Source: SAR86 cluster bacterium (lineage in GTDB: Bacteria; Pseudomonadota; Gammaproteobacteria; Magnimaribacterales; TMED112). Taken from it: a stretch of 64,000 nt of DNA. The stretch covers positions 4,437-68,436 of the forward strand of contig QOPD01000005.1 in the NCBI GenBank assembly GCA_003331605.1, written 5' to 3'. A program made the translations under genes and the position numbers. Of the stretch, positions 24,139 to 42,613 are shown piece by piece. The notes under the pieces are model-generated. The model did not search any database, had not been told where the DNA came from, and worked only from the letters and a program-made list of their open reading frames with translations. The first letter of the stretch is position 1. Each line of letters starts with the position of its first letter.

Positions 24139-24147
24139 TTGTTAACA

Positions 24148-25017
24148 ATGAACGAGTTTATAATTGTCTTTCGAGAATGCTTAGAAGCATCACTAATAGT
24201 TGGTATCATTTATAGCTTTTTATCTCGTTCTAATCTAACTGAAGCAATTTCAAAACTATGGCTTGGGGTTGGTGCATCAGTACTAGCTAGTATTTTTGTA
24301 GCGTTTGTAGTGGTTTATCTTAAATCAGTAGCTGGTGATACACGGTATGAAAAATTATTTGAAGCCTTGTTTATGTATGCTGCTGCAGGCTTGATTTGGT
24401 ATGTTGTATTTTGGCTATCAAAACACGTTTCAGATCGTAAGGACCTTGAATCTAAAACAAAACAAGCTTTGAAGATGTCATCATGGGGTGTGTTTTGGGT
24501 GGTGTTCTTTTCAATTCTGAGGGAAGGGTTTGAAACAGTAGTTATGTTACTAGCTCAGGACAGAGGCGATGGTTTTTCATTTATTGGTTTTATCTTGGGC
24601 GCAACATTGGCGCTTTATATTGGCTATTTAGTAGTAGCATTGGGAAAGAAAATTAACTTAAGACCTTTTTTTAAAGGGACTACGCTATTGTTGGTACTTT
24701 TGGCATCCGGTATGATTGCTTATGGCACACACGAAGCTGAAGAGTATTTAGAAAAATCTGGTTATATTGAAAAAAATCAAATTTCACGACCATGGGATAT
24801 ATTGCAGCCAACATCCGAAAAACCAGACAACGATATCCTTTATAGGTACGATGGCAGCAAAGACCTATACTATCACCCCTTGCATGACTCAGGTTATGCG
24901 GGTGAATTTGCTAAGGGTTTTTTTGGCTACAATTCAAATCCAAATTATGTAGAATTGCTGTTGTGGTTAATTTCATTATTTTTTGGCCTCAATCTATGGC
25001 GTAGATTTTACGGCTGA
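24148..25017 (+). CDS. FTR1/EfeU-family iron permease
   Basis: Two RExxE motifs (FRECLEAS, LREGFETV), multiple TMs, C-terminal GFFGYNSNP. Confidence 0.93.
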   Translation: MNEFIIVFRECLEASLIVGIIYSFLSRSNLTEAISKLWLGVGASVLASIFVAFVVVYLKSVAGDTRYEKLFEALFMYAAAGLIWYVVFWLSKHVSDRKDLESKTKQALKMSSWGVFWVVFFSILREGFETVVMLLAQDRGDGFSFIGFILGATLALYIGYLVVALGKKINLRPFFKGTTLLLVLLASGMIAYGTHEAEEYLEKSGYIEKNQISRPWDILQPTSEKPDNDILYRYDGSKDLYYHPLHDSGYAGEFAKGFFGYNSNPNYVELLLWLISLFFGLNLWRRFYG

Positions 25018-25083
25018 TAAAACGAAAATTCCTAAAAGATTAAATATGCAACTATTTTAATGAACTGCTAGTATATTTGGTAT

Positions 25084-25626
25084 ATGGAAACTTTAAGCGA
25101 ACTAATACTTCTTCTTGGTCAGTTTTTATCTGATTCTTTAAACTACCTCATGCATTCCATAAGCTTTTATATCCAGACAAGTTTAGAAAGCATCTCCCCA
25201 AGCAGCAGTGAAATCTCCTCGTATGCACCGTGGGCTGGTGAGTCATATGTTGGACGACTTACTGGGCTATTTTTTGTAATCATATTTTTTGGTTTGCCAA
25301 TATGGATAGTTTTAATTGTTAATTTTTTTAAAAACAGACGAGCAAAACTAGTACATGATACTTTGCAAATTGCATTACAAAACGGTCAAGAACTATCTGT
25401 TGATGTCATCAAATCTCTTCCTGGATATGAGGGAGAAAAGAAAAAAGACTCCAATCAAGCATTCACTACTACCGGTACTGGGCTGGGTCTAATTTTCTTT
25501 GGGCTTCTATTATTTCAGAGCTTTTACAACCCACTCTCAGGGATCGGTGCATTGATCTTCTTTATTGGTTTAGCTGAATTAGTTGGGAAGTACATTATTA
25601 AAAAAGATAGACCAGCTAATGTTTAA
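25084..25626 (+). CDS. membrane protein with DUF6249-like region
   Basis: TM, then KNRRAKLVHDTLQIALQNG, then two C-terminal TMs; precedes the ECF sigma gene. The DUF name is recalled, not searched. Confidence 0.6.
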   Translation: METLSELILLLGQFLSDSLNYLMHSISFYIQTSLESISPSSSEISSYAPWAGESYVGRLTGLFFVIIFFGLPIWIVLIVNFFKNRRAKLVHDTLQIALQNGQELSVDVIKSLPGYEGEKKKDSNQAFTTTGTGLGLIFFGLLLFQSFYNPLSGIGALIFFIGLAELVGKYIIKKDRPANV

Positions 25627-26117
25627 TGATCTCAGATCAAGAAATAGTAGAGAAATGTATACAAGAAGGAAATGAACATTTTGAAGAGCTTATCAAAAGA
25701 CATTCAAACTATATCTTTGGTTTTATGATGCGTCTTACAGGTGGAAATCAAATGTTTGCTGAGGATTTAACACAAACTGCTTTTCTAAGAGCCATCTCTT
25801 ATCTCCAATCTTACAATCCAGCCAAAGAGTTTAGAGGGTGGCTTGCCACTATAGCAATTAATAGTTTCCGTACAGAAGTACGAAAACACGCAAAATATAC
25901 CTTAGAAGAAAATATGGATCACATTAGCGCCAACGAACAGAGGGGAGATAATCAAGATTTTTATAAATTACTAAGTCATCTGTCATCAGATGAGCGCACA
26001 ATCCTTACCATGAAGTACATTTACGACTATAAAAATGCCGACATAGCAAGAGATCTTAATATGAATTTAAATACAGTAAAGTCAGTAATTAAAAGAGCTC
26101 TAGAGAAGTTAAAATGA
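25626..26117 (+). CDS. ECF-family RNA polymerase sigma factor
   Basis: Region 2 AEDLTQTAFLRA...FRGWLATIAIN; region 4 YKNADIARDLNMNLNTVKSVIKRA. Confidence 0.93.
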   Translation: MISDQEIVEKCIQEGNEHFEELIKRHSNYIFGFMMRLTGGNQMFAEDLTQTAFLRAISYLQSYNPAKEFRGWLATIAINSFRTEVRKHAKYTLEENMDHISANEQRGDNQDFYKLLSHLSSDERTILTMKYIYDYKNADIARDLNMNLNTVKSVIKRALEKLK

Positions 26118-31478: not shown

Positions 31479-32069
31479 ATGAAAATTAAAGTATGCGGGG
31501 TTACCCGAGAAAAAGATATTGAAGCGCTTATAAGTGCAAATATTGATTATATTGGCTTTAATTTTATTGAATCAAGTCCGCGAAAAGTTTCTGTTGATTG
31601 GGCCTTAGATATGTCTAGAAAATACAATTTACAAGATAAATTTACATGCTTGTTAGAAAATCCAGCAGCCGAAGAAATTACAAAGATTTTGGACACAAAT
31701 GAGCAATCAAATTTTCAACTGTATGGTAACTATGAAAAACCTGAAAAAAGTATGTGTTTTAAGCCACTTTCTGCAACAAATTTGCAACAAAATGATTTAT
31801 TTCAAATAAAACCTATTAGAAATACTATTTTCTTGCTTGATAATATGGCTGGCACCCTGGGAGGCAGCGGGAATAAATTTGATTGGTCAATCCTCGGCAA
31901 TGTAAACCTTTCAAATTTTATGATTGCTGGAGGAGTTGGAGTTGAAGATTTAGATTACCTATCAACACTTCAGATTTTTGGGGTTGATTTAAATTCAAAA
32001 ATTGAAATATCTCCAGGGATAAAAGATCTAAATCAGATAAAGCTGTTGGGAATGTTAAAATATGAATAA
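31479..32069 (+). CDS. trpF: phosphoribosylanthranilate isomerase
   Basis: [48 protein letters not shown]. Confidence 0.93.
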
Positions 32070-33228
32070 AGGGTATTTTGGAAATTTTGGCGGGTTGTTC
32101 ATACCTGAAACTCTTTCTTATGCATTAAGAGAGCTGGATGAGCTTTATAACTCCACTAAAGATGATGTTGTTTTTAGAACTGAGCTAGAAGAACTATATA
32201 AAAATTATGTTGGACGACCATCTCCATTATATTTTGCAGAAAAATATACTACTAATATTGGAGGCCCTAATATATGGTTCAAGCGAGAGGATCTTAATCA
32301 TACTGGTGCTCATAAAATCAATAATACTGTCGGACAGGCTTTGTTAGCCAAAAGACTTGGAAAAAAACGAATTATTGCTGAAACCGGGGCAGGCCAACAT
32401 GGTGTTGCAACCGCTACAATCTGTGCCAAACTCGATTTAGATTGCACTATATATATGGGCCAAACCGATATCGTTCGACAGGAGCTTAATGTTTTTAAAA
32501 TTAAAACTCTTGGCGCAGAAGTAATACCTGTTACCAGTGGAACATCAACTCTTAAAGATGCCTTAAATGAATCAATAAGAGACTGGGTTACAAATGTAGA
32601 CAATACACACTACATTATTGGTAGTGTAACTGGCCCACACCCTTATCCAACTGTAGTGAGAGATTTTAATGCAATTGCTGGTCAGGAATTAAAACATCAA
32701 GCAAAAAATCAAATAGGAAAATTGCCGGATATGATTATTGCCTGTGTTGGTGGTGGTTCTAATGCAATGGGTGTCTTTTATCCTTTTATAGACGATGTAG
32801 ATGTTCAATTAATAGGAATTGAAGCAGGTGGAAAAAATAGTTCTGATATAGGTAGTGCATCGATATCAGACGGCAGCATAGGTGTGCTACATGGAGCTAA
32901 AACAAAGATACTACAATCCGAGGATGGAAATATTATGGAAACAAGCAGCATATCAGCAGGCCTAGATTATCCTGGAGTAGGTCCTGAGCATGCTTATTTA
33001 GATGAAATCAAAAGGGCTGAATATAAAAAAATATACGATGAAGAGGCCCTATCTGCTTTTTATAAAGCCTCAAGGCTGGAAGGAATTATACCTGCATTAG
33101 AAACAGCCCATGCTCTTGCTTATTTAGAAAAATTAGGAAGCCTTGATTCATCCAATGATGTGGTGGTAAACATGTCTGGCAGAGGAGATAAAGATCTCTA
33201 TTCGGTAATGAATAATGATAAAAAATAA
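32062..33228 (+). CDS. trpB: tryptophan synthase beta chain
   Basis: [56 protein letters not shown]. Confidence 0.99.
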
Positions 33229-33994
33229 GTTCTTAAATTTAGCGGCCAATCAAAAAAAGGCATTTATACCTTATGTGGTTGCTAATTACCCAAACCAAGA
33301 TGTTTTTACTGAAACTTTGTATACCTTAAAAGATTTAGGAGCAGATTTAATTGAAGTTGGTATCCCATTTTCTGATCCAATTGCTGAAGGCAAGATTATT
33401 GAATCCGCTCATCATGAAGTTCTTAATAATAATTTTAATTTAGTAAGCGCATTGGATGTTATTAAAAATTTTAAATCCAATTCTGATATACCTATTGTTT
33501 TAATGGGATATACCAATTCATTTATTTCACCAAGCCTTGAAGTATTTATAGAGCGAGCAAAAGACTCACTTATTGATGGATTTTTAATTGTAGATTTACC
33601 TTATGTAGAAAAAGATATCTACAAAACATTTCATGATAATGAAATTGAATTTATTCAACTTATAGCTCCAACTACTCCATTAAATGAAATTAAATCATGC
33701 ATATCAAACAATCCTGCGTTTATATATTTCATCTCTCAAAGAGGAGTCACTGGATCATCAAATATCAATAAAAATGAGGTGTTAGACAATATTCAAGCCA
33801 TCAGAAATAAAACTAATTTACCGGTTGTCTTAGGCTTTGGATTAAAAGATCCATCACAAATAAATGAATTTAAATCACACGCTGATGGATTTGTAATTGG
33901 CAGTGCCGTTGTTGAATTATTAAACCAAGATAATCCTCAAGTAAAATTACGCAAATTCCTGACACCCATCCTTACAGCAATTAAAAATGAATAA
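33215..33994 (+). CDS. trpA: tryptophan synthase alpha chain
   Basis: [38 protein letters not shown]. Confidence 0.97.
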
Positions 33995-35429
33995 AGAAGA
34001 TTTTTTAAGATACAAGAATTCATCTTATTCACATATACCTGTTTATGAAGAATTTACAGCAGATTTAGTTAGTCCGCTTTACGTTTATTCAAACTTTTAC
34101 AATCAAGAAAATACTTTTTTATTTGAATCAGCAAAGTCTCATGAAGTAAAAGGCCGTTACTCAATAATGAGTCTTCCATCTCAAAAAAAATATAATTACT
34201 TTAAAGATAAGTTAGAGATAGTTAATGATTCACAAACTACAAAACAAAGAATTATTAATGCTTTTGATCATATAGATAAAATTAGTCAATCTTTTTCATC
34301 GCCAAAAATAAATAATCTCCCTGCATTTCTTGGAGGTTTGGTTGGTTACTTTAGTTATGAATCATTCCAATTTATAGAGCAAAAAGTTACTTTTCCAGAT
34401 CAAGACATCCCTTTAATATCTCTAATAGAATGCAATGAATTAATTATTTTTGATAACTTCAAAGGTACATTTTATATTGTCGTAAATACCACCGATAAGT
34501 CAGAAATAGGCTGGGAGAAAGCAAAGAAAAGAATTTCCGAAATTAAGCAAGCAGTTTTTTCTCTTCAACCCTCTGTTAATCAAAGCATTTCAATAGATAA
34601 TAAATCCCTAAAATCTTCTTCTAATGTCGATAAAAAAACCTTTATAAATCAAGTTAAAGATCTAAAAAAACTTATTAACCAGGGGGAAATAATGCAAGCA
34701 GTATTATCTAAGGAGATTACCTTTGATGGTGAATTTGATCCCTACACCCTTTATCGTGCTCTTCGATTAATTAATCCATCGCCTTACATGTTTTTCTTAA
34801 ACTTTAATAAATTCAGGATTATTGGTTCTTCACCAGAAATACTGGTTCAAAAAAATGATGACAAAGTAACAATAAGGCCTATTGCAGGTACACGTAGACG
34901 AGGTCTTAATAAATCTGAGGACCTAAAAAATAAAATTGATCTTATAGAGGATGAAAAAGAAAAATCTGAACATATGATGCTAGTTGATTTAGCTAGGAAT
35001 GATCTTTCGAAAGTATGTGAACAAGGTACTGTTCAAGTAGACGAGATGATGGTGGTTGAGAAGTACTCCCATGTTATGCATATGACATCGAATGTAATTG
35101 GAAGATCAAAAACAGATGTTTCCATTATAGATTGTATGAAAGCAGCCTTACCTGCAGGCACTTTAAGTGGAGCTCCAAAAATCCGAGCTATGGAAATTCT
35201 TAGTGAAATTGAAAAACGCCCAAGAGGTGTATATGGAGGTGCAGTAGGGTATCTGGGTTTTAATGGTTCACTGGATACAGCTATTGTTATTCGTACTGGT
35301 ATGCATTTTGATGATCATATAAAAGTAGGTGTTGGAGCAGGAATTGTTTACGATTCAGATCCCGAATCAGAGTGGGAGGAAACCGAATCAAAAGCAAAGG
35401 TATTTTATGAGGCGCTGAGATATAAATGA
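33987..35429 (+). CDS. trpE: anthranilate synthase component I
   Basis: LFESA..GRYSI, NPSPYMF, GSSPE, RPIAGTR, EHMMLVDLARND, PAGTLSGAPK. Confidence 0.96.
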   Translation: MNKEDFLRYKNSSYSHIPVYEEFTADLVSPLYVYSNFYNQENTFLFESAKSHEVKGRYSIMSLPSQKKYNYFKDKLEIVNDSQTTKQRIINAFDHIDKISQSFSSPKINNLPAFLGGLVGYFSYESFQFIEQKVTFPDQDIPLISLIECNELIIFDNFKGTFYIVVNTTDKSEIGWEKAKKRISEIKQAVFSLQPSVNQSISIDNKSLKSSSNVDKKTFINQVKDLKKLINQGEIMQAVLSKEITFDGEFDPYTLYRALRLINPSPYMFFLNFNKFRIIGSSPEILVQKNDDKVTIRPIAGTRRRGLNKSEDLKNKIDLIEDEKEKSEHMMLVDLARNDLSKVCEQGTVQVDEMMVVEKYSHVMHMTSNVIGRSKTDVSIIDCMKAALPAGTLSGAPKIRAMEILSEIEKRPRGVYGGAVGYLGFNGSLDTAIVIRTGMHFDDHIKVGVGAGIVYDSDPESEWEETESKAKVFYEALRYK

Positions 35430-36007
35430 AAATCTGTTTGATTGATAATTACGATTCATTTACTTTTAACGTTCAACATCAGCTATTAATGCTTGATCAC
35501 GAAGTAGATGTGATACGTAACGATAAGATCTCCATTGATGAGATATCTCAACTGGATTACGATGCTTTTGTTATTGGTCCTGGCCCATCAAACCCTAAAA
35601 ATGCTGGAATAAGTTTAGAGCTAATAAATTATTTTTATAATAAGAAACCTATTTTGGGTATTTGTTTAGGGCACCAATGCATTGGTGAGGTGTTCGGCGG
35701 AAACATTGTCATTGCGAATAAAATAATGCATGGCAAGACCTCAAATCTAAGCCACACAAAATCTTCAATTTTTCAAAATATAAAAGAGCCATACATTGCA
35801 ATGAGATATCACAGCTTGGTTATCTCTGAAGAATCAGTATCAGATGAGCTAGAGGTTTTAGCCTGGTGTGAGGATGATAATCACAAAACGATAATGGCAG
35901 TTAAGCATAAAACTTATCCAGTTGTGGGAATACAGTTTCATCCTGAATCAATATTTACTGAACAAGGCAACAAGTTACTAGATAACTTTTTCACTTTATA
36001 TGGATAA
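35426..36007 (+). CDS. trpG: anthranilate synthase component II (glutamine amidotransferase)
   Basis: IDNYDSFT, GPGP, GICLGHQ, RYHSL, QFHPES. Confidence 0.95.
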   Translation: MKICLIDNYDSFTFNVQHQLLMLDHEVDVIRNDKISIDEISQLDYDAFVIGPGPSNPKNAGISLELINYFYNKKPILGICLGHQCIGEVFGGNIVIANKIMHGKTSNLSHTKSSIFQNIKEPYIAMRYHSLVISEESVSDELEVLAWCEDDNHKTIMAVKHKTYPVVGIQFHPESIFTEQGNKLLDNFFTLYG

Positions 36008-37004
36008 TCTATTAGCAATACTAAACAAACCTGCATCGCGAAGAGCGGAACTAGAGTTTTTATTCAGTCATTTGCTTAGTGAAGATTCATCTGATGAAGA
36101 AAAAAAAGAAATTTTATTAAGTTTAAACGAGGTTGGCATTAACTATTATCATCTTTCCGCATTATCAAATGAGATTCTTAAACACTCAAACTTAATTGAC
36201 TTAGGGCATAACGATTTTATCGATACGTGTGGTACAGGTGGTTCTGGTCAGTCTATTTTTAACTGTTCGACCCTTTCTGCATTTACTGTTGCTTCATGTG
36301 GCGGGAAAGTAATCAAACATGGCAATAGATCAATAACAAGCAAATCTGGTAGCGCTGATTTCCTAGAAAGGGCGGGCGTAAATTTAAATGTTGGTAACAG
36401 TCAGCTTATCGGCCTATTTCAAAAATTAGGCATTTGCTTTTTATTTGCTCCAAATCAACATCCAAAATTAAAAAATGTTGCTAGAGTTCGTAAAGAACTA
36501 GGTGTAAGAACAATATTCAATATCTTGGGACCACTTGTTAACCCTGCCAAACCACAATTCCAATTGCTGGGAACATCCGATTCCTCTAGTAACATAAATA
36601 TGGCAAATGCTTTGTTAAACAATGGAATACAAAGAGCTATAGTTGCAACCTCTAGTTCAGGAATTGATGAAATAGCTATACATGAACCGACTTCAATAAC
36701 AGAAATAAGAAATAATGAAATCTTAGAATGGCAGTTTAATCCTAAAGATTACGGCTTTGTAGACTGCTCACTACCAGATATCCAGGTACAATCACTTGAA
36801 GAAGCTTACCTATTTGGGGTAGAGGTGCTAAATGGAAAAAGAGGACCAGGACTCGATATGGTATCTCTAAATGCAGGTTTCTGTTTGTATTTATTAGGAT
36901 TATGTGACGATCTAATCGAATGTTTTGAAATAGCAAAAAAACAATTAATATCTGGCAAAGTCCTTCTTAACTTAAATGTCTACGCTAAAGCAACTCAAGA
37001 ATGA
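36000..37004 (+). CDS. trpD: anthranilate phosphoribosyltransferase
   Basis: DTCGTGG, FNCST, KHGNRSITSKSGSAD, RTIFNILGPLVNP, G.DE. Confidence 0.97.
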   Translation: MDNLLAILNKPASRRAELEFLFSHLLSEDSSDEEKKEILLSLNEVGINYYHLSALSNEILKHSNLIDLGHNDFIDTCGTGGSGQSIFNCSTLSAFTVASCGGKVIKHGNRSITSKSGSADFLERAGVNLNVGNSQLIGLFQKLGICFLFAPNQHPKLKNVARVRKELGVRTIFNILGPLVNPAKPQFQLLGTSDSSSNINMANALLNNGIQRAIVATSSSGIDEIAIHEPTSITEIRNNEILEWQFNPKDYGFVDCSLPDIQVQSLEEAYLFGVEVLNGKRGPGLDMVSLNAGFCLYLLGLCDDLIECFEIAKKQLISGKVLLNLNVYAKATQE

Positions 37005-37759
37005 ATCAACTTGATACCATATTTCAATCAAAAAGAGCCCAAGTAGCTGAAGGTAAGAAAACCCAATCCATAGATTTCTTTATTGAAAATTTTAACCAGA
37101 AGCGTAACTCTGGAAATTTTTTTAATACCTTGGATAGCAATAGAAACAATTTTAAAATTATTGCTGAAACTAAAAAAGGGTCGCCATCAGCAGGTATTAT
37201 TAAAGAGCAATATGATCCTCTTTCAATAGCAAAATCCTACGAAGAGAAGGGCTATAAAAATATTTCTGTCTTAACAGAATCTGGATATTTTTATGGGATA
37301 AATTCAGATCTCACAATGATTGCCCTAAATACCAGCTTAAAAGTGTTAAGAAAAGACTTTATTTTTGATGAGTGGCAAATATACGAATCAAAATACATTG
37401 GAGCTGATTGTATTTTACTTATCGCAGAATACTTATCGGAAGCTCAAATTTCAGCATTTATAAAGCTTGCTAAGTCACTTGATCTAGACGTTTTACTTGA
37501 ATTTCACGAAGAACAGCAATTGAGCAAGGTGCTTAACCAAGAACTAGACCATGTAGGCATCAACAACCGTAATCTTAAAAACCTTCAAACAGATAATATG
37601 CATGCTCTTAGGGTATTTAAAAAATATAGAGATGACTTTCAAAGATTTTCTATAATCGCTGAATCGGGCTTATCTATCTCTAAAGATTTGGAAATTTACC
37701 AAAATGAGGGTATAAATAAATTTCTCATTGGAGAAGGAATATTAAAAAGTTTGCTCTAA
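37001..37759 (+). CDS. trpC: indole-3-glycerol-phosphate synthase
   Basis: IIAETKKGSPSAG, SVLTE, LRKDF, GADCILLI, GINNRNL, IAESG. Confidence 0.96.
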   Translation: MNQLDTIFQSKRAQVAEGKKTQSIDFFIENFNQKRNSGNFFNTLDSNRNNFKIIAETKKGSPSAGIIKEQYDPLSIAKSYEEKGYKNISVLTESGYFYGINSDLTMIALNTSLKVLRKDFIFDEWQIYESKYIGADCILLIAEYLSEAQISAFIKLAKSLDLDVLLEFHEEQQLSKVLNQELDHVGINNRNLKNLQTDNMHALRVFKKYRDDFQRFSIIAESGLSISKDLEIYQNEGINKFLIGEGILKSLL

Positions 37760-37779
37760 TTTATCTCATATCACAGTTC

Positions 37780-38127
37780 TTGCTAACTGAACCTGAGCTC
37801 TATTTTATCGAGCCGCAAGATAAAGCAATTATCTCAGGTCCTGTAAAAGTTGTTTTTGGATTAAAAGATTTTGGCGTTGCTCCTGCTGGATACAATATTA
37901 ATAACACCGGCCATCATCACTTGTTGATCAATGTTGATTTTCCTATTGATTTCACTAAACCAATCCCTGCTGATAGCAATCATATTCATTTTGGCAAAGG
38001 ACAAACTGAAACTATATTGGATCTACCTAAAGGGGAATACAGATTGAGGTTGCTACTTGGAAACTATGTACATATTCCACATAGCAACCCAATTTATTCG
38101 GAAGAGATACTAATAACCGTTAATTAA
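37780..38127 (+). CDS. DUF4399-like protein (may start at ATT 37741)
   Basis: GVAPAG...TGHHHLLIN...HIHFGKGQTE...LPKGEYRLRLLLGNYVH.PH. Confidence 0.8.
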   Translation: MLTEPELYFIEPQDKAIISGPVKVVFGLKDFGVAPAGYNINNTGHHHLLINVDFPIDFTKPIPADSNHIHFGKGQTETILDLPKGEYRLRLLLGNYVHIPHSNPIYSEEILITVN

Positions 38128-39245
38128 TCAATTATATTGATTACTCCATCACCAGCCATTCCAGCATGTAAAGTACAAAAATAGTACATTGTATCAACGT
38201 CTAAATTTGTTGGAACAACCCATGTCAGAGTATTTTGGTCGCCACTAACTCCTTCAGTGTAAGTAGTTCCACCACCAAATGTTCCATCTTTAGTTTTACT
38301 AAGTCGGAATGGATGACTATTACCAAATGCTGAAGTATCAAATACAACGGTTTGACCACGACGAACTGTAATACTGCCATGTATTTCACCATTCATGTAG
38401 TAAGTGTTGCCTTGATTGGTTACGGTGACCTCTGCAGTTTCTGAATAAGTTTCAACTTTGACATTGTCGTAATGTACGCCAGTTGGAGCGTAATTGCCTG
38501 CTGTATTCGTGAATCCGGATTGATAAATATGACCAATCATTGCTTCTGTGATTTCAAAATCTAAAGTCAAAGTTTGCCACTCTGTGGTTAGTTCTGTTGT
38601 ATCAGTCTCTACAAAAAGTAATTCACTAAAATCACTTGAATTTAAAACTTTTATAAAAGCACTACATTCAGCTCCACTTGCTCCATTGTCAGGGTTAGTT
38701 GAGCCGCAATTATTGGATTCAGGGTGTTTGGCATCAAAGGTCATTCTGTAAGTCCCTACCATAGAAGCTGTAATCAAACCTTCATCAGCTCCAAGTTCTC
38801 TAAAGAAATTTGCTTCAACAATTCCTCCGTTGTGTGTGCCATCTTGATAATTGCTGTAGATATTGACGTATTTATTCACTTCCTCTTCGACTAGTGCACT
38901 AATATCACCTGCTATTGGAGCTGGTGCTGCAGCATATCCACCAATGTATGAACCATCAGAATTAAACTGATTAACATAGGCATCCCATGGTGCTAAGTTA
39001 GCATCATCAGATGAATAAGCTTCAAAATCATCAGAGTATGTAACATTGGTTACTGGTTCTGGTGTTGGTGCTGGCGTTGGCTCAGGAGTAGGCTCAGGAG
39101 TAGGCTCAGGAGTTGGTGCTGGCGTTGGTGCTGGTGTAGGAGCAGGCGTCGGAGTTGGGGTATAAGGATCAGAGTCACCGCCACCGCCACCGCCACAAGC
39201 AGTTAGTAAAACGAGAGTCAAACCTGTAAATAGTTTTTTAAACAT
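38124..39245 (-). CDS. lipoprotein with Pro/Thr linker, beta-sandwich (CBM-like) domain and C-terminal cupredoxin-like domain
   Basis: Lipobox LTAC plus poly-Gly; 36-aa PT tract; W/Y-rich beta domain (EWQTLTLDF, HYDNVKV); SHPF...YYFCTLHAGM. Confidence 0.75.
   Translation of the reverse strand: MFKKLFTGLTLVLLTACGGGGGGDSDPYTPTPTPAPTPAPTPAPTPEPTPEPTPEPTPAPTPEPVTNVTYSDDFEAYSSDDANLAPWDAYVNQFNSDGSYIGGYAAAPAPIAGDISALVEEEVNKYVNIYSNYQDGTHNGGIVEANFFRELGADEGLITASMVGTYRMTFDAKHPESNNCGSTNPDNGASGAECSAFIKVLNSSDFSELLFVETDTTELTTEWQTLTLDFEITEAMIGHIYQSGFTNTAGNYAPTGVHYDNVKVETYSETAEVTVTNQGNTYYMNGEIHGSITVRRGQTVVFDTSAFGNSHPFRLSKTKDGTFGGGTTYTEGVSGDQNTLTWVVPTNLDVDTMYYFCTLHAGMAGDGVINIID
39054..39161 (-). repeat. coding tandem repeat (TP-AP/TP-EP), degenerate 12-bp units
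   Basis: 18 X-Pro dipeptides; GGCTCAGGAGTA repeated at 39079-39113. Confidence 0.95.
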
Positions 39246-39289
39246 AATAGAGACTAACTAAAGGCATATAAAAATATTTCAACTGTTAA

Positions 39290-40447
39290 TTATCGTTTAG
39301 ATTTTTTGGTTTCGTCTCTATGCTTTTTAAGATATTTCATAAAGGGCGTTCCACCAGTGCCTCTAACTGTAGAACCTCCAGTACCAAATAGTGTGTTTTT
39401 AACATTTTGTTGATGAATGTAATCTGCAGCATATTGCAAATGCTGAGTTCGAAAGCTTGCCATCTCTTCAAGACATTCATTAATTAGAGAATTAATTTTG
39501 CTACTTGTAAGTGCAGCATCCACAACTTTAGATTCTTCTTCTACTGTTCGGATGAAATTTCTATGATTGTTTGGCATGTATATTTTCATTTCATCAAGAT
39601 AATCTCGTAATTCGTCTTTTTCATGACGAACATTAAACAATGCATCAAGGGATGGAATAATGGAGCTCTGTGCACCAGTTTCACCTCTAAATAATTGTGG
39701 TTTATCTTGAAAGAAACCATCATAAATTAGACCTTCAGGTAAATCTGGATTATTTTTCCATCCAAATATGTATGGTCTTACTCTGTGATAGTAGATATAT
39801 GGATCGCATTTCTCAGGCATTAATCTAAAGATTTCATTAACCTTTACCATAGATTTTTTTATCTTTTGTAACTCTTCTGCCAATAAGGTTTCATCGTTCC
39901 ACAGTTCATCATCTACAATTTTAGCTACACTTGATATTGCTGGACTTGCAGCATCTTCAATGCAAACATGGATTGTCACAAACCAGTCTTCATCGATACC
40001 ACCTAAAAAATTATTGATTAGAGCTACATTATCTAAGGAAATATCTTCAGATTCATTTATTTTGTTCCAATTGTGTAAGCAATAGGAGGCATAACTCAGA
40101 ATAGGAGGGCGCTTAAACTTTTCTGAGAGCTTAACCCAAGGTGTACTAATGTTGTGTGGTAAATTTTGGACAGGCTTTAGATCACCCCATACATATGCAT
40201 GAGCTATAAATGAGAGTTGCGCAAATAGTAATTCTTGCTCCCCTAGAGAGTGATCATCTAAATGTAGATCTAGGGTTTTTATTTTGTCTATAGTGGGTCG
40301 TATTTGATTGGTAAGAAGGAGTTTTGGAAGCTCTGCTGCCACATTGCTAATTATATCTGTACTAGTAGTTTTATTTTGAACAACTCTTAAAGGAGTTGCT
40401 TCGGGAAGAAATCCTCGTTTTGTTATATATTTTTTTAGCTTGACCAT
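39290..40447 (-). CDS. indoleamine 2,3-dioxygenase-family heme protein
   Basis: FIAHAYVWG, PPILSYASYCLHNW, GETGAQSS, FRTQHLQYAADYI (proximal His), GTGGTPFMKYLK; all correspond to IDO1 motifs. Confidence 0.9.
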   Translation of the reverse strand: MVKLKKYITKRGFLPEATPLRVVQNKTTSTDIISNVAAELPKLLLTNQIRPTIDKIKTLDLHLDDHSLGEQELLFAQLSFIAHAYVWGDLKPVQNLPHNISTPWVKLSEKFKRPPILSYASYCLHNWNKINESEDISLDNVALINNFLGGIDEDWFVTIHVCIEDAASPAISSVAKIVDDELWNDETLLAEELQKIKKSMVKVNEIFRLMPEKCDPYIYYHRVRPYIFGWKNNPDLPEGLIYDGFFQDKPQLFRGETGAQSSIIPSLDALFNVRHEKDELRDYLDEMKIYMPNNHRNFIRTVEEESKVVDAALTSSKINSLINECLEEMASFRTQHLQYAADYIHQQNVKNTLFGTGGSTVRGTGGTPFMKYLKKHRDETKKSKR

Positions 40448-40549: not shown

Positions 40550-42613
40550 ATGAATTTATACAATAAATTGAAAATTATTTTTCTTCTAACAATTATCAAT
40601 TTTGTTTGTGGTGAAAATGAATCTGCTCTAGAAGAGCTTGTAGTAAAAGGAAAAGTTCTATATCAAGACCAAGTCAGTGCTTTAAAAACTCCAGTTCCGA
40701 TACTCAATGTCCCTCAAACTGTTTCCATCATTACCGATGAAGAAATCTTAAAAAAAGGTTTTAACAACATTGAAGATATTATTAGATTTGTTCCGGGTGT
40801 CACTAGCTCACAAGGTGAAGGGCATAGAGACGCAATTGTCATACGAGGCATTAGATCTACTGCTGATTTCTATCAAGATGGCATACGAGATGATGTTCAG
40901 TATTTTCGTTCTTTATACAACGTTGATCAATTAGAAATACTGCGTGGTCCTAACGCTCTGCTTTTTGGTAGAGGTGGTACTGGTGGCATTGTGAATCGTG
41001 TGACAAAAAAAGCTGTAACATCAGAAAACTTTACTCGTATGAATTTAGGGTTTAATACTTTTGGAGCGACAGACTTAGCAATAGATAGTAATCATATCTT
41101 AAGTATAAACTCTGGATTGCGTATTAACCTACATACCGATCAGCTGGAGAATCACCGTGATTATTTCTTTGGTAATAGGATGGGTATTAACCCTTCACTA
41201 ACACTAATTATAGATTCTGAGCTAACTCTTAACCTCTCATACGAATACATCAACCATGAAAGATTTATCGATAGAGGGATCCCTACGCTCAATGGTAGAC
41301 CAGATACAAACTTAAGAGACACTGTATTTGGCAATCCTGATTTTAACTATCACACCGTAGAAGCAGCTATTTATAGAGTACAAGCAAGCTATCAAATGTC
41401 AGATACATTTAAGGCAAACTTCAACCTTACAGCAAATAATTTTGACAAAGTTTATCAGAACATTTACCCATCAGATTACGATGGTAGTCTGGTATTAATG
41501 GACGGATATTTAGATCCAACCAAACGAGACAACCTTATTTTTTCTGGTAATCTTATAAATGAAATAAGTTCTGGTAAGGTTATTCATACTTTGTTGTACG
41601 GTATTGAATACATTCAAACCACCAATGAAAATTCACGCTTGGATGCATATTGGTCAGCAACACAGGACGATACTGATTTATTTTTTATTGCAACACCTAT
41701 CGATTTTTCTATTAATGGTGGCGGTATAGATACCTATTTAAGTTACTTGGCTCCTAATAGTAAAACTCATTCAAAAATAACTGTCTCTTCATTTTATTTG
41801 CAAGATCAAATAGATCTTAGCGAACGATGGAAGTTTATTGTAGGAGCTCGACTAGATCAATTTGATATTAGTGTTGATGATCTCATCAACAACACCTCAG
41901 AGAAAAAAAATGACAATACTATATCTCCTAGAGGAGGATTAATATTTAAGCCACAAGACAATGTATCAATGTACCTAAGTTACAGTGAAAGCTTTTTACC
42001 AAGATCAGGAGAACAATATAAAAAATTAAATTCCAGTGCAGCTCGCTTGGATCCCGATGTTTTTGAAAGTAAAGAAATTGGGATAAAGATACTCTTTAAT
42101 AATCAGTTAAATCTAACAGCTGCTTATTTTAACAGCGAGCAAATTAGAGCAGCTCGGGATAATATTTCTGGTGAAACATTTAACATCAGGGGTCTAAGTG
42201 TTGATGGTTATGAACTCGAAGTTAAAGGCGACATTGGACAAAAATTTTCATATGTTATTGCCAGTTACAGCTCATTAAATGGTAAAACCCAAACAGGAGG
42301 CACTCCTCGAGAAATCCCTGAATTTACCTTTTCTGCAAATGCCCAATACCAGCTGACAAACAAGTTCAATCTTGGTTTTGGTTATTTATCTCAAGGCGAA
42401 TCATTAATTATTGATGACAATGAGAATTTAACTTTACCTCAGTATAGCCGTCTAGATTTATCTGGTTCGTACAACATCAGCGATCGGCTTACACTGCGTC
42501 TACATCTTGATAATGTGCTCGATGAACTTTATTTTCCACATGCTCACGCCGTGCATCAAGTTAGCGTCGGGGAGCCATTCAACGCTCGAATTGTATTTAG
42601 CTATTATTTTTAG
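40550..42613 (+). CDS. TonB-dependent receptor (siderophore-receptor type)
   Basis: LEELVVKG (TonB-box-like), PQTVSII, LEILRGPNALLFGRG.TGG.VN.VTK, C-terminal aromatic residue (SYYF). Confidence 0.95.
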   Translation: MNLYNKLKIIFLLTIINFVCGENESALEELVVKGKVLYQDQVSALKTPVPILNVPQTVSIITDEEILKKGFNNIEDIIRFVPGVTSSQGEGHRDAIVIRGIRSTADFYQDGIRDDVQYFRSLYNVDQLEILRGPNALLFGRGGTGGIVNRVTKKAVTSENFTRMNLGFNTFGATDLAIDSNHILSINSGLRINLHTDQLENHRDYFFGNRMGINPSLTLIIDSELTLNLSYEYINHERFIDRGIPTLNGRPDTNLRDTVFGNPDFNYHTVEAAIYRVQASYQMSDTFKANFNLTANNFDKVYQNIYPSDYDGSLVLMDGYLDPTKRDNLIFSGNLINEISSGKVIHTLLYGIEYIQTTNENSRLDAYWSATQDDTDLFFIATPIDFSINGGGIDTYLSYLAPNSKTHSKITVSSFYLQDQIDLSERWKFIVGARLDQFDISVDDLINNTSEKKNDNTISPRGGLIFKPQDNVSMYLSYSESFLPRSGEQYKKLNSSAARLDPDVFESKEIGIKILFNNQLNLTAAYFNSEQIRAARDNISGETFNIRGLSVDGYELEVKGDIGQKFSYVIASYSSLNGKTQTGGTPREIPEFTFSANAQYQLTNKFNLGFGYLSQGESLIIDDNENLTLPQYSRLDLSGSYNISDRLTLRLHLDNVLDELYFPHAHAVHQVSVGEPFNARIVFSYYF

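What the first reader, a model, noticed from the sequence alone, without database searches (positions are those of the whole stretch)
38124..39245. Surface lipoprotein fusing a PT stalk, a CBM-like domain and a cupredoxin-like module
The architecture is lipobox, G6, 36-aa Pro/Thr linker, ~200-aa beta-rich domain with an internal Cys pair, then a ~100-aa module with SHPF and YYFCTLHAGM. That His...Cys-x2-His-x2-Met set matches a type-1 copper ligand pattern. From memory, similar HP.RF...YYYC..H.GMG modules recur in marine T4-like phage virion proteins (unverified). A glycan-binding-like domain tethered to a redox copper domain suggests surface electron transfer for oxidative polysaccharide attack or metal redox. 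It lies downstream of ido on the same strand and converges on a His-rich DUF4399 gene.
Basis: partly seen in the sequence, partly recalled or inferred. Interest (0 to 1): 0.62.

Follow-up and report, generated by a model that had tools for sequence, protein, structure and literature searches.

The report
Tethered SAR86 lipoprotein with phage-type cupredoxin
A tiny-genome marine SAR86 bacterium encodes a lipid-anchored protein on a long flexible tether whose far end is predicted to be a blue-copper-type (cupredoxin) domain; that domain belongs to a very large family, not described in the literature I could search, that also sits in the tail fibres and baseplates of marine phages, and nothing found here shows that it works in oxidative sugar breakdown.

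Summary
ORF 38124-39245 (-) encodes a 373-aa lipoprotein: lipobox, Gly6, a 38-aa Pro/Thr tether, a ~204-aa domain with one Cys pair, and a 104-aa C-terminal module.

With a 54-sequence alignment the module folds at pLDDT 97. Its best PDB matches are almost all cupredoxins (plastocyanin, rusticyanin, pseudoazurin, amicyanin). Closer matches (TM 0.75-0.86) are cyanophage tail-fibre and baseplate proteins.

His311, Cys357, His360 and Met363 (amicyanin-type C-x2-H-x2-M spacing) are complete in 194 of 213 unfiltered family copies, and Cys and the second His are lost together. The family has 1,779 clusters and no curated model that covers this protein.

The middle domain has no detectable relatives outside one SAR86 genus. 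"CBM-like" rests only on its fusion to GH16 enzymes.

The gene sits in a variable slot between ido and DUF4399, where related species carry different cargo domains. Across SAR86 the module is the distal end of lipoproteins with unrelated cargos. Family-wide partners are fibre or adhesin domains, never redox enzymes. The redox and polysaccharide-attack idea is therefore unsupported, and an FTR1-partner idea fails a co-occurrence test.

Most likely this is a non-catalytic tethered binding protein with a copper-binding cupredoxin cap.

The parts
39195..39245 (-). Signal peptide with lipobox (MFKKLFTGLTLVLLTA|C; Cys17 is the lipid-attachment residue; the residue after Cys is Gly)
   Evidence: Read from the sequence. 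The same ...ACGGGG start is found in all paralogues across SAR86 and in six ORFs of the window's own genome. Pattern only: no SignalP or LipoP was run.
39177..39194 (-). Gly6 run directly after the lipidated Cys
   Evidence: Sequence.
39054..39167 (-). Pro/Thr(/Ala/Glu) low-complexity tether, residues 27-64
   Evidence: Sequence. It drew about 180 low-complexity hits in the homologue search.
38442..39053 (-). Middle domain of unknown fold, residues 65-268, with the Cys180/Cys194 pair. It is genus-restricted and is also found N-terminal to GH16 and next to lamin-tail domains.
   Evidence: Alignment A3 has 25 invariant columns, including the C-terminal YDN. No Pfam, PDB or PHROG match. Found in 12 genomes of one genus out of 154 SAR86 genomes. 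The AlphaFold2 model of this part was not usable (pLDDT below 50).
38127..38438 (-). C-terminal cupredoxin-fold module, residues 270-373 (protein P0122)
   Evidence: AlphaFold2 pLDDT 97.4, pTM 0.88. Foldseek against the PDB: almost all of the top 50 are cupredoxins. Foldseek against BFVD: cyanophage fibre and baseplate proteins at TM 0.75-0.86. phrog_677 E 4.5e-18. 1,779 related clusters.
38313..38315 (-). His311 codon (first putative type-1 Cu ligand, in SHPF)
   Evidence: Invariant in A2 although not selected for. 96 % conserved in 213 unfiltered copies. Aligns with His37 of plastocyanin in the profile search.
38157..38177 (-). Cys357-Thr-Leu-His360-Ala-Gly-Met363: ligand loop with C-x2-H-x2-M spacing
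   Evidence: Lies between the last two strands of the model, E83-88 and E100-103 in module numbering. The full H-C-H-M set is present in 194 of 213 copies, and Cys and His are lost together. Aligns with the Cys, His and Met ligands of plastocyanin.
39290..40447 (-). ido (indoleamine 2,3-dioxygenase family), 44 bp upstream on the same strand
   Evidence: PF01231 E 1.8e-88. No terminator-like site in the gap. The adjacency is conserved only in the closest SAR86 species.
37741..38127 (+). Convergent DUF4399 gene (His-rich). Canonical start at 37780; the probable true start is an ATT at 37741, which restores a signal peptide.
   Evidence: PF14347 E 4.3e-32. Stop codons overlap in TTAA. Upstream in-frame signal-peptide-like stretch. 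Flanks the slot in 11 related loci, whether or not a lipoprotein is present.
40550..42613 (+). TonB-dependent receptor, divergent from ido
   Evidence: PF00593 E 1.4e-43 and PF07715 E 2.7e-20. Syntenic in G010, G017 and G005.

Best explanation
The gene encodes a lipid-anchored protein of a SAR86-cluster gammaproteobacterium, probably in the outer membrane. It is held away from the membrane by a ~38-residue Pro/Thr tether.

It has two folded parts:
1. A genus-specific ~200-aa domain. In sister genomes the same domain is the non-catalytic N-terminal module of a conserved GH16 (beta-glucanase-type) lipoprotein. It is therefore inferred, not shown, to bind a glycan.
2. At the distal C-terminus, a cupredoxin-fold module with a complete type-1 copper ligand set: His311, Cys357, His360 and Met363, with amicyanin-like C-x2-H-x2-M spacing.

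The module belongs to a very large family with no curated model covering this protein. In cells the family is embedded in fibre- and adhesin-type surface proteins. In marine phages (cyanophages, pelagiphages) it is embedded in tail fibres and baseplate proteins.

Within SAR86 the module is a recurrent distal 'cap' on tethered lipoproteins whose cargo differs: none, a nuclease-like domain, lamin-tail domains, unknown domains, or this middle domain. The window's version arose by domain shuffling in a variable slot between ido and DUF4399.

The most likely working model is a non-catalytic, surface-tethered binding protein. Its terminal module binds one copper ion, and the metal site is needed for the stability or the recognition function of an extracellular beta-sandwich. 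It is less likely a link in an electron-transfer chain.

Shown: architecture, fold, ligand conservation, family distribution, slot variability, purifying selection.
Inferred: copper occupancy, surface exposure, glycan binding, and a structural or recognition role rather than a redox role.
For: Architecture:
- ORF and features.

Fold:
- pLDDT 97.4.
- PDB Foldseek top hits are plastocyanin, rusticyanin, pseudoazurin, amicyanin, AcoP and Cu-nitrite reductase, at probability 1.00.
- A sequence profile of the family finds plastocyanins first (E 0.03), with all four ligands aligned.

Ligands:
- His is invariant without having been selected for.
- H, C, H and M are among the 8 most conserved columns.
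- The set is complete in 194 of 213 copies. Cys and His2 are both lost in 13 copies and singly lost in 3.

Family and phage link:
- 1,779 clusters.
- All 54 sampled copies hit phrog_677, the baseplate wedge tail fibre connector.
- BFVD matches at TM up to 0.86.
- Synechococcus phage S-H25 and pelagiphage HTVC028P proteins keep the H/C/H/M set.

Non-redox context:
- Co-occurring domains are collagen, cadherin, fn3, Big_9, T7 tail fibre and laminin-G.
- SAR86 paralogues carry unrelated cargos, always with the module C-terminal.
- The genome has no PF00127 protein and no multicopper oxidase.

Slot variability.

Middle domain with GH16.

Purifying selection: dN/dS 0.07.

Distribution: the module is in 81 of 154 SAR86 genomes.
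Against: - No metal-binding data exist, and I could not read the model's coordinates, so spatial clustering of the four ligands was not measured.
- A perfectly conserved type-1 site is the hallmark of electron-transfer proteins. A purely structural role for such a site has no well-known precedent, so the redox reading cannot be dismissed.
- TM-scores to solved cupredoxins are only 0.5-0.6.
- The glycan-binding role of the middle domain is inferred from domain architecture alone.
- Surface exposure, as opposed to facing the periplasm, is unknown.
Confidence: 0.55

Rival explanations
1. One reading: the module is a redox-active type-1 copper centre. It shuttles electrons at the cell surface to support oxidative attack on a polysaccharide held by the middle domain, or to carry out extracellular metal redox.
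For: - Complete, highly conserved H/C/H/M set with amicyanin spacing.
- Cupredoxin fold.
- Lipid-anchored cupredoxins that transfer electrons are known; lipid-modified azurin of Neisseria is an example (PMC6277709, listed).
- The middle domain is shared with a GH16 enzyme.
Against: - No oxidase, LPMO-like, cytochrome or multicopper oxidase domain ever co-occurs with the module in 80 sampled proteins.
- The genome lacks multicopper oxidases and other blue-copper proteins.
- The same module caps a nuclease-like lipoprotein, and lipoproteins with no cargo at all.
- It occurs in up to 9-20 tandem copies and in phage fibres, where electron transfer has no obvious role.
- A single type-1 copper cannot activate O2.
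Confidence: 0.17
2. Copper capture or buffering: the tethered module scavenges or sequesters Cu at the cell surface. This would serve supply to cuproenzymes or protection from toxicity, possibly handing the metal to a TonB-dependent receptor.
For: - High-affinity Cu ligand set.
- A TonB-dependent receptor lies two genes away and is syntenic in relatives.
- Minimal homologues of 173-175 aa consist of a lipobox, a short linker and the module alone.
- The neighbouring DUF4399 is His-rich and secreted.
Against: - Type-1 sites bind Cu tightly and are buried, so they are not built for hand-off.
- The receptor is divergently transcribed, with ido in between.
- The minimal homologues sit next to a ~1,000-aa secreted protein of unknown family, not next to a receptor.
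- This reading does not explain the phage copies.
Confidence: 0.12
3. Phage-host interface: the module is a recognition element shared by marine phage fibres and host surface proteins. The variable slot lipoprotein would act as a decoy or shield, or as an adhesin that binds the same ligand that phage fibres bind.
For: - Closest structural relatives are phage tail-fibre and baseplate proteins.
- The module is at the distal end both in the lipoproteins and in the S-H25 connector protein.
- The locus is hypervariable among close species, as expected for surface proteins under diversifying pressure.
Against: - The two orthologues compared are under strong purifying selection, not diversifying selection (dN/dS 0.07).
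- No SAR86 phage was examined.
- The most conserved residues are the metal ligands, not a surface patch.
Confidence: 0.1
4. Ferroxidase partner of the solitary FTR1 iron permease that lies in the same window (24139-25017). This would be analogous to the cupredoxin partners FtrB and EfeO of bacterial FTR1 systems.
For: - FTR1 is present without an adjacent P19, EfeO or FtrB-type gene.
- This lipoprotein is the only type-1-copper candidate in the genome.
Against: - The two genes are 13 kb apart.
- Across 154 SAR86 genomes, presence of the module and presence of FTR1 are independent: 35 have both, 46 the module only, 32 FTR1 only, 41 neither (odds ratio 0.97, p = 1.0).
- An outer-membrane-tethered protein is badly placed to serve an inner-membrane permease.
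Confidence: 0.04

Closest known systems
Single-domain type-1 (blue) copper proteins: amicyanin, plastocyanin, pseudoazurin, rusticyanin, AcoP
   Same: - Greek-key beta-sandwich fold (Foldseek probability 1.00).
- One His before a central strand, and Cys-x2-His-x2-Met on the loop between the last two strands. From textbook knowledge this is the spacing of amicyanin (Cys92, His95, Met98).
- The ligand columns align in a profile search.
   Different: - Only 13-22 % identity and TM 0.5-0.6.
- Not recognised by PF00127.
- Never a free periplasmic carrier: it is always a module inside large fibre or adhesin proteins, or at the end of tethered lipoproteins, and is often tandemly repeated.
- No redox partner in the context.
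C-terminal and internal modules of cyanophage and pelagiphage tail-fibre, baseplate-wedge-connector and virion structural proteins (PHROGs 677, 6005, 708, 30742, 693)
   Same: - Same domain family by sequence (P0122 against phrog_677, E 4.5e-18) and by predicted structure (TM 0.75-0.86).
- Same H/C/H/M set, for example S-H25 'GGGHPFRIQS...LYYICTLHAAMAGTINVVG'.
   Different: - Here the module is in a cellular lipoprotein, not a virion.
- The SAR86 subfamily has a two-residue longer tail after Met (MAGDGVINIID).
- I found no experimental work on the phage modules either.
Pfam PF25489 'At5g54830-like domain'
   Same: The only curated model that recognises part of this family. 21 of 54 domain copies hit it (best E 5.8e-8), as do 6 of 80 full-length relatives (best E 9e-20). 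The slot protein of G017 hits it at E 8e-4.
   Different: The window's module does not match it at all: no hit at E <= 1 by hmmscan and none at E <= 10 in the genome search.
Lipid-modified azurin (Laz) of Neisseria
   Same: A cupredoxin attached to the membrane by an N-terminal lipid and a low-complexity linker (PMC6277709, title and abstract).
   Different: - Laz is an azurin-family electron carrier that works with known respiratory partners.
- This protein carries an extra cargo domain, belongs to a different cupredoxin family, and has no identified partner.
Surface glycan-binding lipoproteins of TonB-dependent uptake loci (SusE/F-like SGBPs)
   Same: Working analogy only: a non-catalytic lipoprotein built of beta-rich modules, near a TonB-dependent receptor, sharing a module with a glycoside hydrolase.
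   Different: No sequence or structural relationship was shown. The fold of the middle domain is unknown, and the receptor is not in the same operon.

Membership tests
Cupredoxin superfamily (type-1 copper proteins) | Greek-key beta-sandwich cupredoxin fold | tested here: met
   AlphaFold2 pLDDT 97.4. 49 of the top 50 PDB Foldseek hits are cupredoxin-superfamily proteins at probability 0.9-1.0, with TM 0.44-0.62.
Cupredoxin superfamily (type-1 copper proteins) | Ligand set His ... Cys-xn-His-xm-Met, with the last three on the loop between the two C-terminal strands | tested here: met
   - His311, Cys357, His360 and Met363 are present.
- Cys ends strand E83-88, and Met precedes strand E100-103.
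- The set is conserved in 194 of 213 copies.
- The columns align to the plastocyanin ligands.
Cupredoxin superfamily (type-1 copper proteins) | The four ligands lie within bonding distance of one metal position | not testable with these tools
   Model coordinates are not exposed to the Python box. Only topology and alignment support this.
Cupredoxin superfamily (type-1 copper proteins) | Binds Cu with a blue (~600 nm) band and a small-A-parallel EPR signal | not testable with these tools
   Needs protein chemistry.
Pfam PF00127 Copper-bind (plastocyanin/azurin family) | Score above the gathering threshold (21.2 bits) | tested here: not met
   No hit for the module at E <= 10. No hit in the genome at E <= 0.1. 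Only 6 of 54 relatives hit weakly (best E 0.005).
Pfam PF25489 At5g54830-like domain | Score above the gathering threshold (27 bits) | tested here: not met
   No match to the window protein. More distant members of the same family do match.
Phage fibre/baseplate module (PHROG 677 and relatives) | Significant match to the PHROG profiles and to predicted structures of phage proteins | tested here: met
   - P0122: phrog_677 E 4.5e-18, phrog_6005 E 1.3e-7, phrog_708 E 6.7e-6.
- BFVD E 1e-11, TM 0.86.
- tblastn hits in S-H25 and HTVC028P.
Bacterial lipoprotein (SPase II substrate) | Positively charged n-region, hydrophobic h-region, and lipobox [LVI][ASTVI][GAS]C | tested here: met
   MFKK-LFTGLTLVL-LTA|C. 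By pattern only: no dedicated predictor was available.
Carbohydrate-binding module (middle domain) | Sequence or fold membership in a CBM family | tested here: not met
   - No Pfam hit for the isolated domain at E <= 10, or for 8 homologues at E <= 5.
- A profile search against the PDB found nothing.
- The CBM_4_9 hit at E 0.15 spans residues 240-335 across the domain border.
- The AlphaFold2 model was unusable.
Carbohydrate-binding module (middle domain) | Non-catalytic module attached to a glycoside hydrolase | tested here: met
   The same domain sits N-terminal to GH16 in P0011 (PF00722 E 1.2e-6). It also occurs in ~541-554-aa ORFs of at least 8 genus members. This is context only, not proof of binding.

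The most novel reading that the evidence does not exclude
The module is a genuinely copper-loaded type-1 site used outside electron-transport chains. It would be a copper-dependent recognition or stability element placed at the business end of marine phage tail fibres and baseplates and of host surface lipoproteins. In that case many abundant ocean virions (cyanophages, pelagiphages) and SAR86 cell surfaces would carry stoichiometric copper. A whole branch of the cupredoxin superfamily would have a non-redox or a new extracellular redox function.
Probability: 0.25. Interest if true: 0.8.

Novelty: new variant of a known kind. Interest (0 to 1): 0.58.

Why it matters
- Cupredoxins are textbook soluble electron carriers. 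Here a branch with intact type-1 copper ligands is very large (1,779 clusters at 50 % identity), and no curated model covers this protein. No solved structure of the family appeared in my PDB searches, and I found no paper on it in the searchable literature.
- This branch lives in unexpected places: phage tail fibres and baseplates, giant adhesin-like proteins, and the distal ends of tethered lipoproteins in SAR86, one of the most abundant bacterial groups of the surface ocean.
- If the site is occupied by copper, that touches virion biochemistry, the marine copper budget and phage-host recognition.
- For SAR86 itself, the locus shows how a ~1-Mb streamlined genome diversifies its few surface lipoproteins, by shuffling modules in one slot.
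- The specific claim of oxidative polysaccharide attack is not supported and should not be propagated.

Tried and rejected
1. Full-length AlphaFold2 with a 10-sequence alignment gave pLDDT 41, so the middle domain could not be interpreted.
2. Pfam, NCBIfam and PDB-sequence searches with single sequences gave nothing for either domain.
3. The first word-indexed homologue search was swamped by Pro/Thr low-complexity hits.
4. The search for related loci with the 54-sequence alignment failed because no stretch was conserved enough. With the whole protein it found nothing in genome contigs.
5. The idea that the ~1,000-aa neighbours of the minimal cupredoxin lipoproteins are TonB-dependent receptors was rejected. 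They have no Plug or barrel match and no Pfam or PDB hit.
6. The FTR1-partner hypothesis was rejected by phyletic independence.
7. Middle domain as a phage-derived module: no PHROG hit and no tblastn hit in phages.
8. Literature searches for cupredoxin with tail fibre, baseplate or virion found nothing relevant. One hit used 'baseplate' in the coccolith sense.
10. Model coordinates could not be read to measure ligand distances.
Full report
**1. Observation**

Read directly from the sequence, it contains:
- a signal peptide ending in the lipobox LLTA|C (Cys17);
- six glycines (residues 18-23);
- a Pro/Thr-rich tether (residues 27-64);
- a ~204-aa domain (residues 65-268) with the only internal Cys pair (C180, C194);
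- a 104-aa C-terminal module (residues 270-373) with SHPF (His311) and YYFCTLHAGM (Cys357, His360, Met363).

It lies 44 bp downstream of an indoleamine-2,3-dioxygenase-family gene (PF01231, E 1.8e-88) on the same strand. Its stop overlaps, in a shared TTAA, the stop of a convergent DUF4399 gene. No terminator-like site lies between ido and the lipoprotein gene.

The fusion junction is genuine. It is present in a second genome (G010, 96 % identity) and in independent metagenome clusters (P0003, P0004). The two orthologues differ with dN/dS 0.07 overall, 0.03 in the middle domain and 0.07 in the C-terminal module.

**2. The C-terminal module**

Single-sequence searches of Pfam, NCBIfam and PDB sequences gave nothing.

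An exhaustive phmmer search of 1.84 billion cluster representatives found 1,779 proteins at E <= 1e-3 and 148 at E <= 1e-10, many with several copies per protein (up to 20 matched stretches). Almost all carry a 'LYYYC..H.GMGG' motif.

In an alignment of 54 diverse copies, His42, Cys88, His91 and Met94 (module numbering) are invariant. The His was not part of my selection filter.

In all 213 full-length copies, unfiltered:
- the four positions are among the eight most conserved columns, at 93-96 %;
- the full H-C-H-M set is present in 194 copies;
- Cys and the second His are lost together (13 copies lack both, 3 lack only one; Fisher p about 1e-17). Tandem copies are not independent, so this p-value is only indicative.

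With the 54-sequence alignment, AlphaFold2 gives pLDDT 97.4 and pTM 0.88.

Foldseek against the PDB returns plastocyanin, rusticyanin, pseudoazurin, amicyanin, AcoP, Cu-nitrite reductase and multicopper oxidases. Forty-nine of the top 50 hits are cupredoxins, at probability about 1.0 and TM 0.44-0.62.

A sequence profile of the family also finds plastocyanins first (E 0.03). The family's His, Cys, His and Met align with the copper ligands.

In the model, Cys ends the penultimate strand and Met precedes the last strand. This is the canonical ligand loop. From textbook knowledge, the C-x2-H-x2-M spacing is that of amicyanin.

I could not read the model's coordinates.

**3. Phage link**

- All 54 copies hit phrog_677, 'baseplate wedge tail fiber protein connector' (the window's module at E 4.5e-18). 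Most also hit PHROGs 27200, 30742, 9158, 6005 and 708, which include tail fibre, virion structural and baseplate wedge families.
- Foldseek against predicted viral structures gives TM 0.75-0.86 to proteins of S-TIM5, S-SCSM1, S-H34, P-SSM2, S-RIM14 and others.
- tblastn finds the module at the C-terminus of the baseplate wedge tail fibre connector of Synechococcus phage S-H25, and in the tail fibre of pelagiphage HTVC028P. Both keep the H/C/H/M set.
- No solved structure of the family appeared in my PDB searches, and I found no paper on it.
- The nearest curated model is PF25489, the 'At5g54830-like domain'. It recognises some distant members (21 of 54 copies; best full-length E 9e-20) but not the window's module.

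**4. What the module travels with**

A Pfam census of 80 relatives found collagen repeats, cadherin-like domains, Big_9, fn3, T7 tail fibre, laminin-G and FG-GAP. It found no cytochrome, oxidase or other redox domain.

The organism is a SAR86-cluster gammaproteobacterium, judged from the titles of related records. Its genome is 0.94 Mb and 97.5 % complete.

In SAR86 the module is found in 81 of 154 genomes and 16 of 21 genera, usually once per genome.

Every SAR86 copy I read (eight paralogues from seven genomes, besides the window's own) is a lipoprotein with the layout ...ACGGGG, low-complexity tether, cargo, then the module at the C-terminus. The cargo differs:
- nothing (173-175 aa);
- an unknown ~120-aa region (325 aa);
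- a nuclease-like domain (359 aa);
- LTD, nuclease-like domain, LTD (749 aa);
- the window's middle domain.

The module is therefore a generic distal cap, not a partner specific to the middle domain.

**5. The middle domain**

It has no Pfam, PDB-sequence or PHROG relative and no phage tblastn hit. The only AlphaFold2 attempt was unusable.

It is confined to the window's genus: 12 genomes, 1 of 21 genera. It occurs in two settings:
- in the slot lipoprotein, often duplicated and followed by a lamin-tail domain;
- as the N-terminal module of a conserved ~545-aa GH16 lipoprotein.

'CBM-like' is therefore a reasonable inference from architecture, but it is unproven. The Cys pair is not conserved in the GH16 version.

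**6. The locus**

In the closest species the order is trp operon, DUF4399, [lipoprotein], ido, TonB-dependent receptor. This order is conserved, but the lipoprotein varies:
- middle domain plus cupredoxin: the window and G010;
- middle domain, LTD, cupredoxin: 537 aa;
- other cargo plus cupredoxin: 326-572 aa;
- two middle domains without cupredoxin: about 720-750 aa;
- no lipoprotein at all.

The window's form looks like the 521-537-aa form with the LTD deleted.

More distant SAR86 ido loci have neither domain. The ido adjacency is therefore positional and recent, and it gives no evidence of a shared pathway.

In the window's genome this is the only copy of either domain. It is one of six CGGG-plus-PT-tether lipoproteins.

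**7. Redox partners**

The genome has no PF00127 protein and no multicopper oxidase.

It does have a solitary FTR1 permease, 13 kb away in the window, without an adjacent partner gene.

Across 154 SAR86 genomes the module and FTR1 are independent: 35 have both, 46 the module only, 32 FTR1 only and 41 neither (odds ratio 0.97). I reject that link.

**8. Verdict**

- 'Cupredoxin-like with a type-1 ligand set' is well supported by fold and conservation. It still lacks a direct geometric check and any metal chemistry.
- 'CBM-like' is only contextual.
- 'Surface electron transfer for oxidative polysaccharide attack' has no support.

The best-supported model is a non-catalytic tethered lipoprotein. 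Its cargo domain probably binds a glycan. Its distal cupredoxin module binds copper and serves stability or recognition, as in the phage fibre proteins that are its nearest relatives. The redox reading remains the main rival, because so strict a type-1 site is otherwise known only from electron-transfer proteins.

Noticed in passing
window 37741-38127 (+): From its first canonical start (TTG, 37780) the DUF4399 gene has no signal peptide. The in-frame codons upstream read IKKFALIYLISQFLL|TEPELYF, which looks like a signal peptide, as in relatives (MKKNYLLLLLTSFVAADPELYF). The likely start is an ATT at 37741, overlapping the end of trpC. G010 has the same arrangement, and no ORF was called there.
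   Followed up: partly
L017 6659-10102 (+); L018 3231-6896 (-): In two other SAR86 families the minimal 173-175-aa lipoprotein-cupredoxin lies directly upstream, on the same strand, of a 965-1041-aa secreted protein with no Pfam or PDB match. The two large proteins are 29 % identical over about 650 aa. This conserved gene pair may point to the module's real partner.
   Followed up: partly
window 24139-26117 (+): A solitary FTR1 iron permease has no adjacent P19, EfeO or FtrB-type partner. It is followed by a DUF6249 protein and an ECF-type sigma factor.
   Followed up: partly
window 32062-40447: A tryptophan biosynthesis cluster (trpB at 32062; trpE-, trpG-, trpD- and trpC-like ORFs at 33987-37759) lies close to a gene of the tryptophan-degrading IDO family. 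IDO homologues at 43-47 % identity also occur in Candidatus Actinomarina and Fimbriimonadales genomes.
   Followed up: no
L020 3710-5518 (-): A SAR86 genome encodes a lipoprotein of the angiotensin-converting-enzyme family (Peptidase_M2, E 1.9e-197). It lies about 0.8 kb from a nuclease-like-plus-cupredoxin lipoprotein.
   Followed up: no
genome contigs C1 213143-216112, C2 3892-5178, C4 31119-33731, C4 107549-111139, C4 202552-204726: The 0.94-Mb genome has only six lipoproteins of the 'CGGG + Pro/Thr tether' type, from 373 to 1,196 aa. One of them (C2, 428 aa) starts with a lamin-tail-like segment. They look like a small modular set of surface proteins.
   Followed up: partly
P0137, P0143, P0253 (relatives): Some tandem arrays contain degenerate copies. 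Some have lost Cys and His together (for example YYYSEDDD). Others have the axial Met replaced by Phe (CSLHLFGG), which recalls the natural axial-ligand variation seen in laccases.
   Followed up: partly
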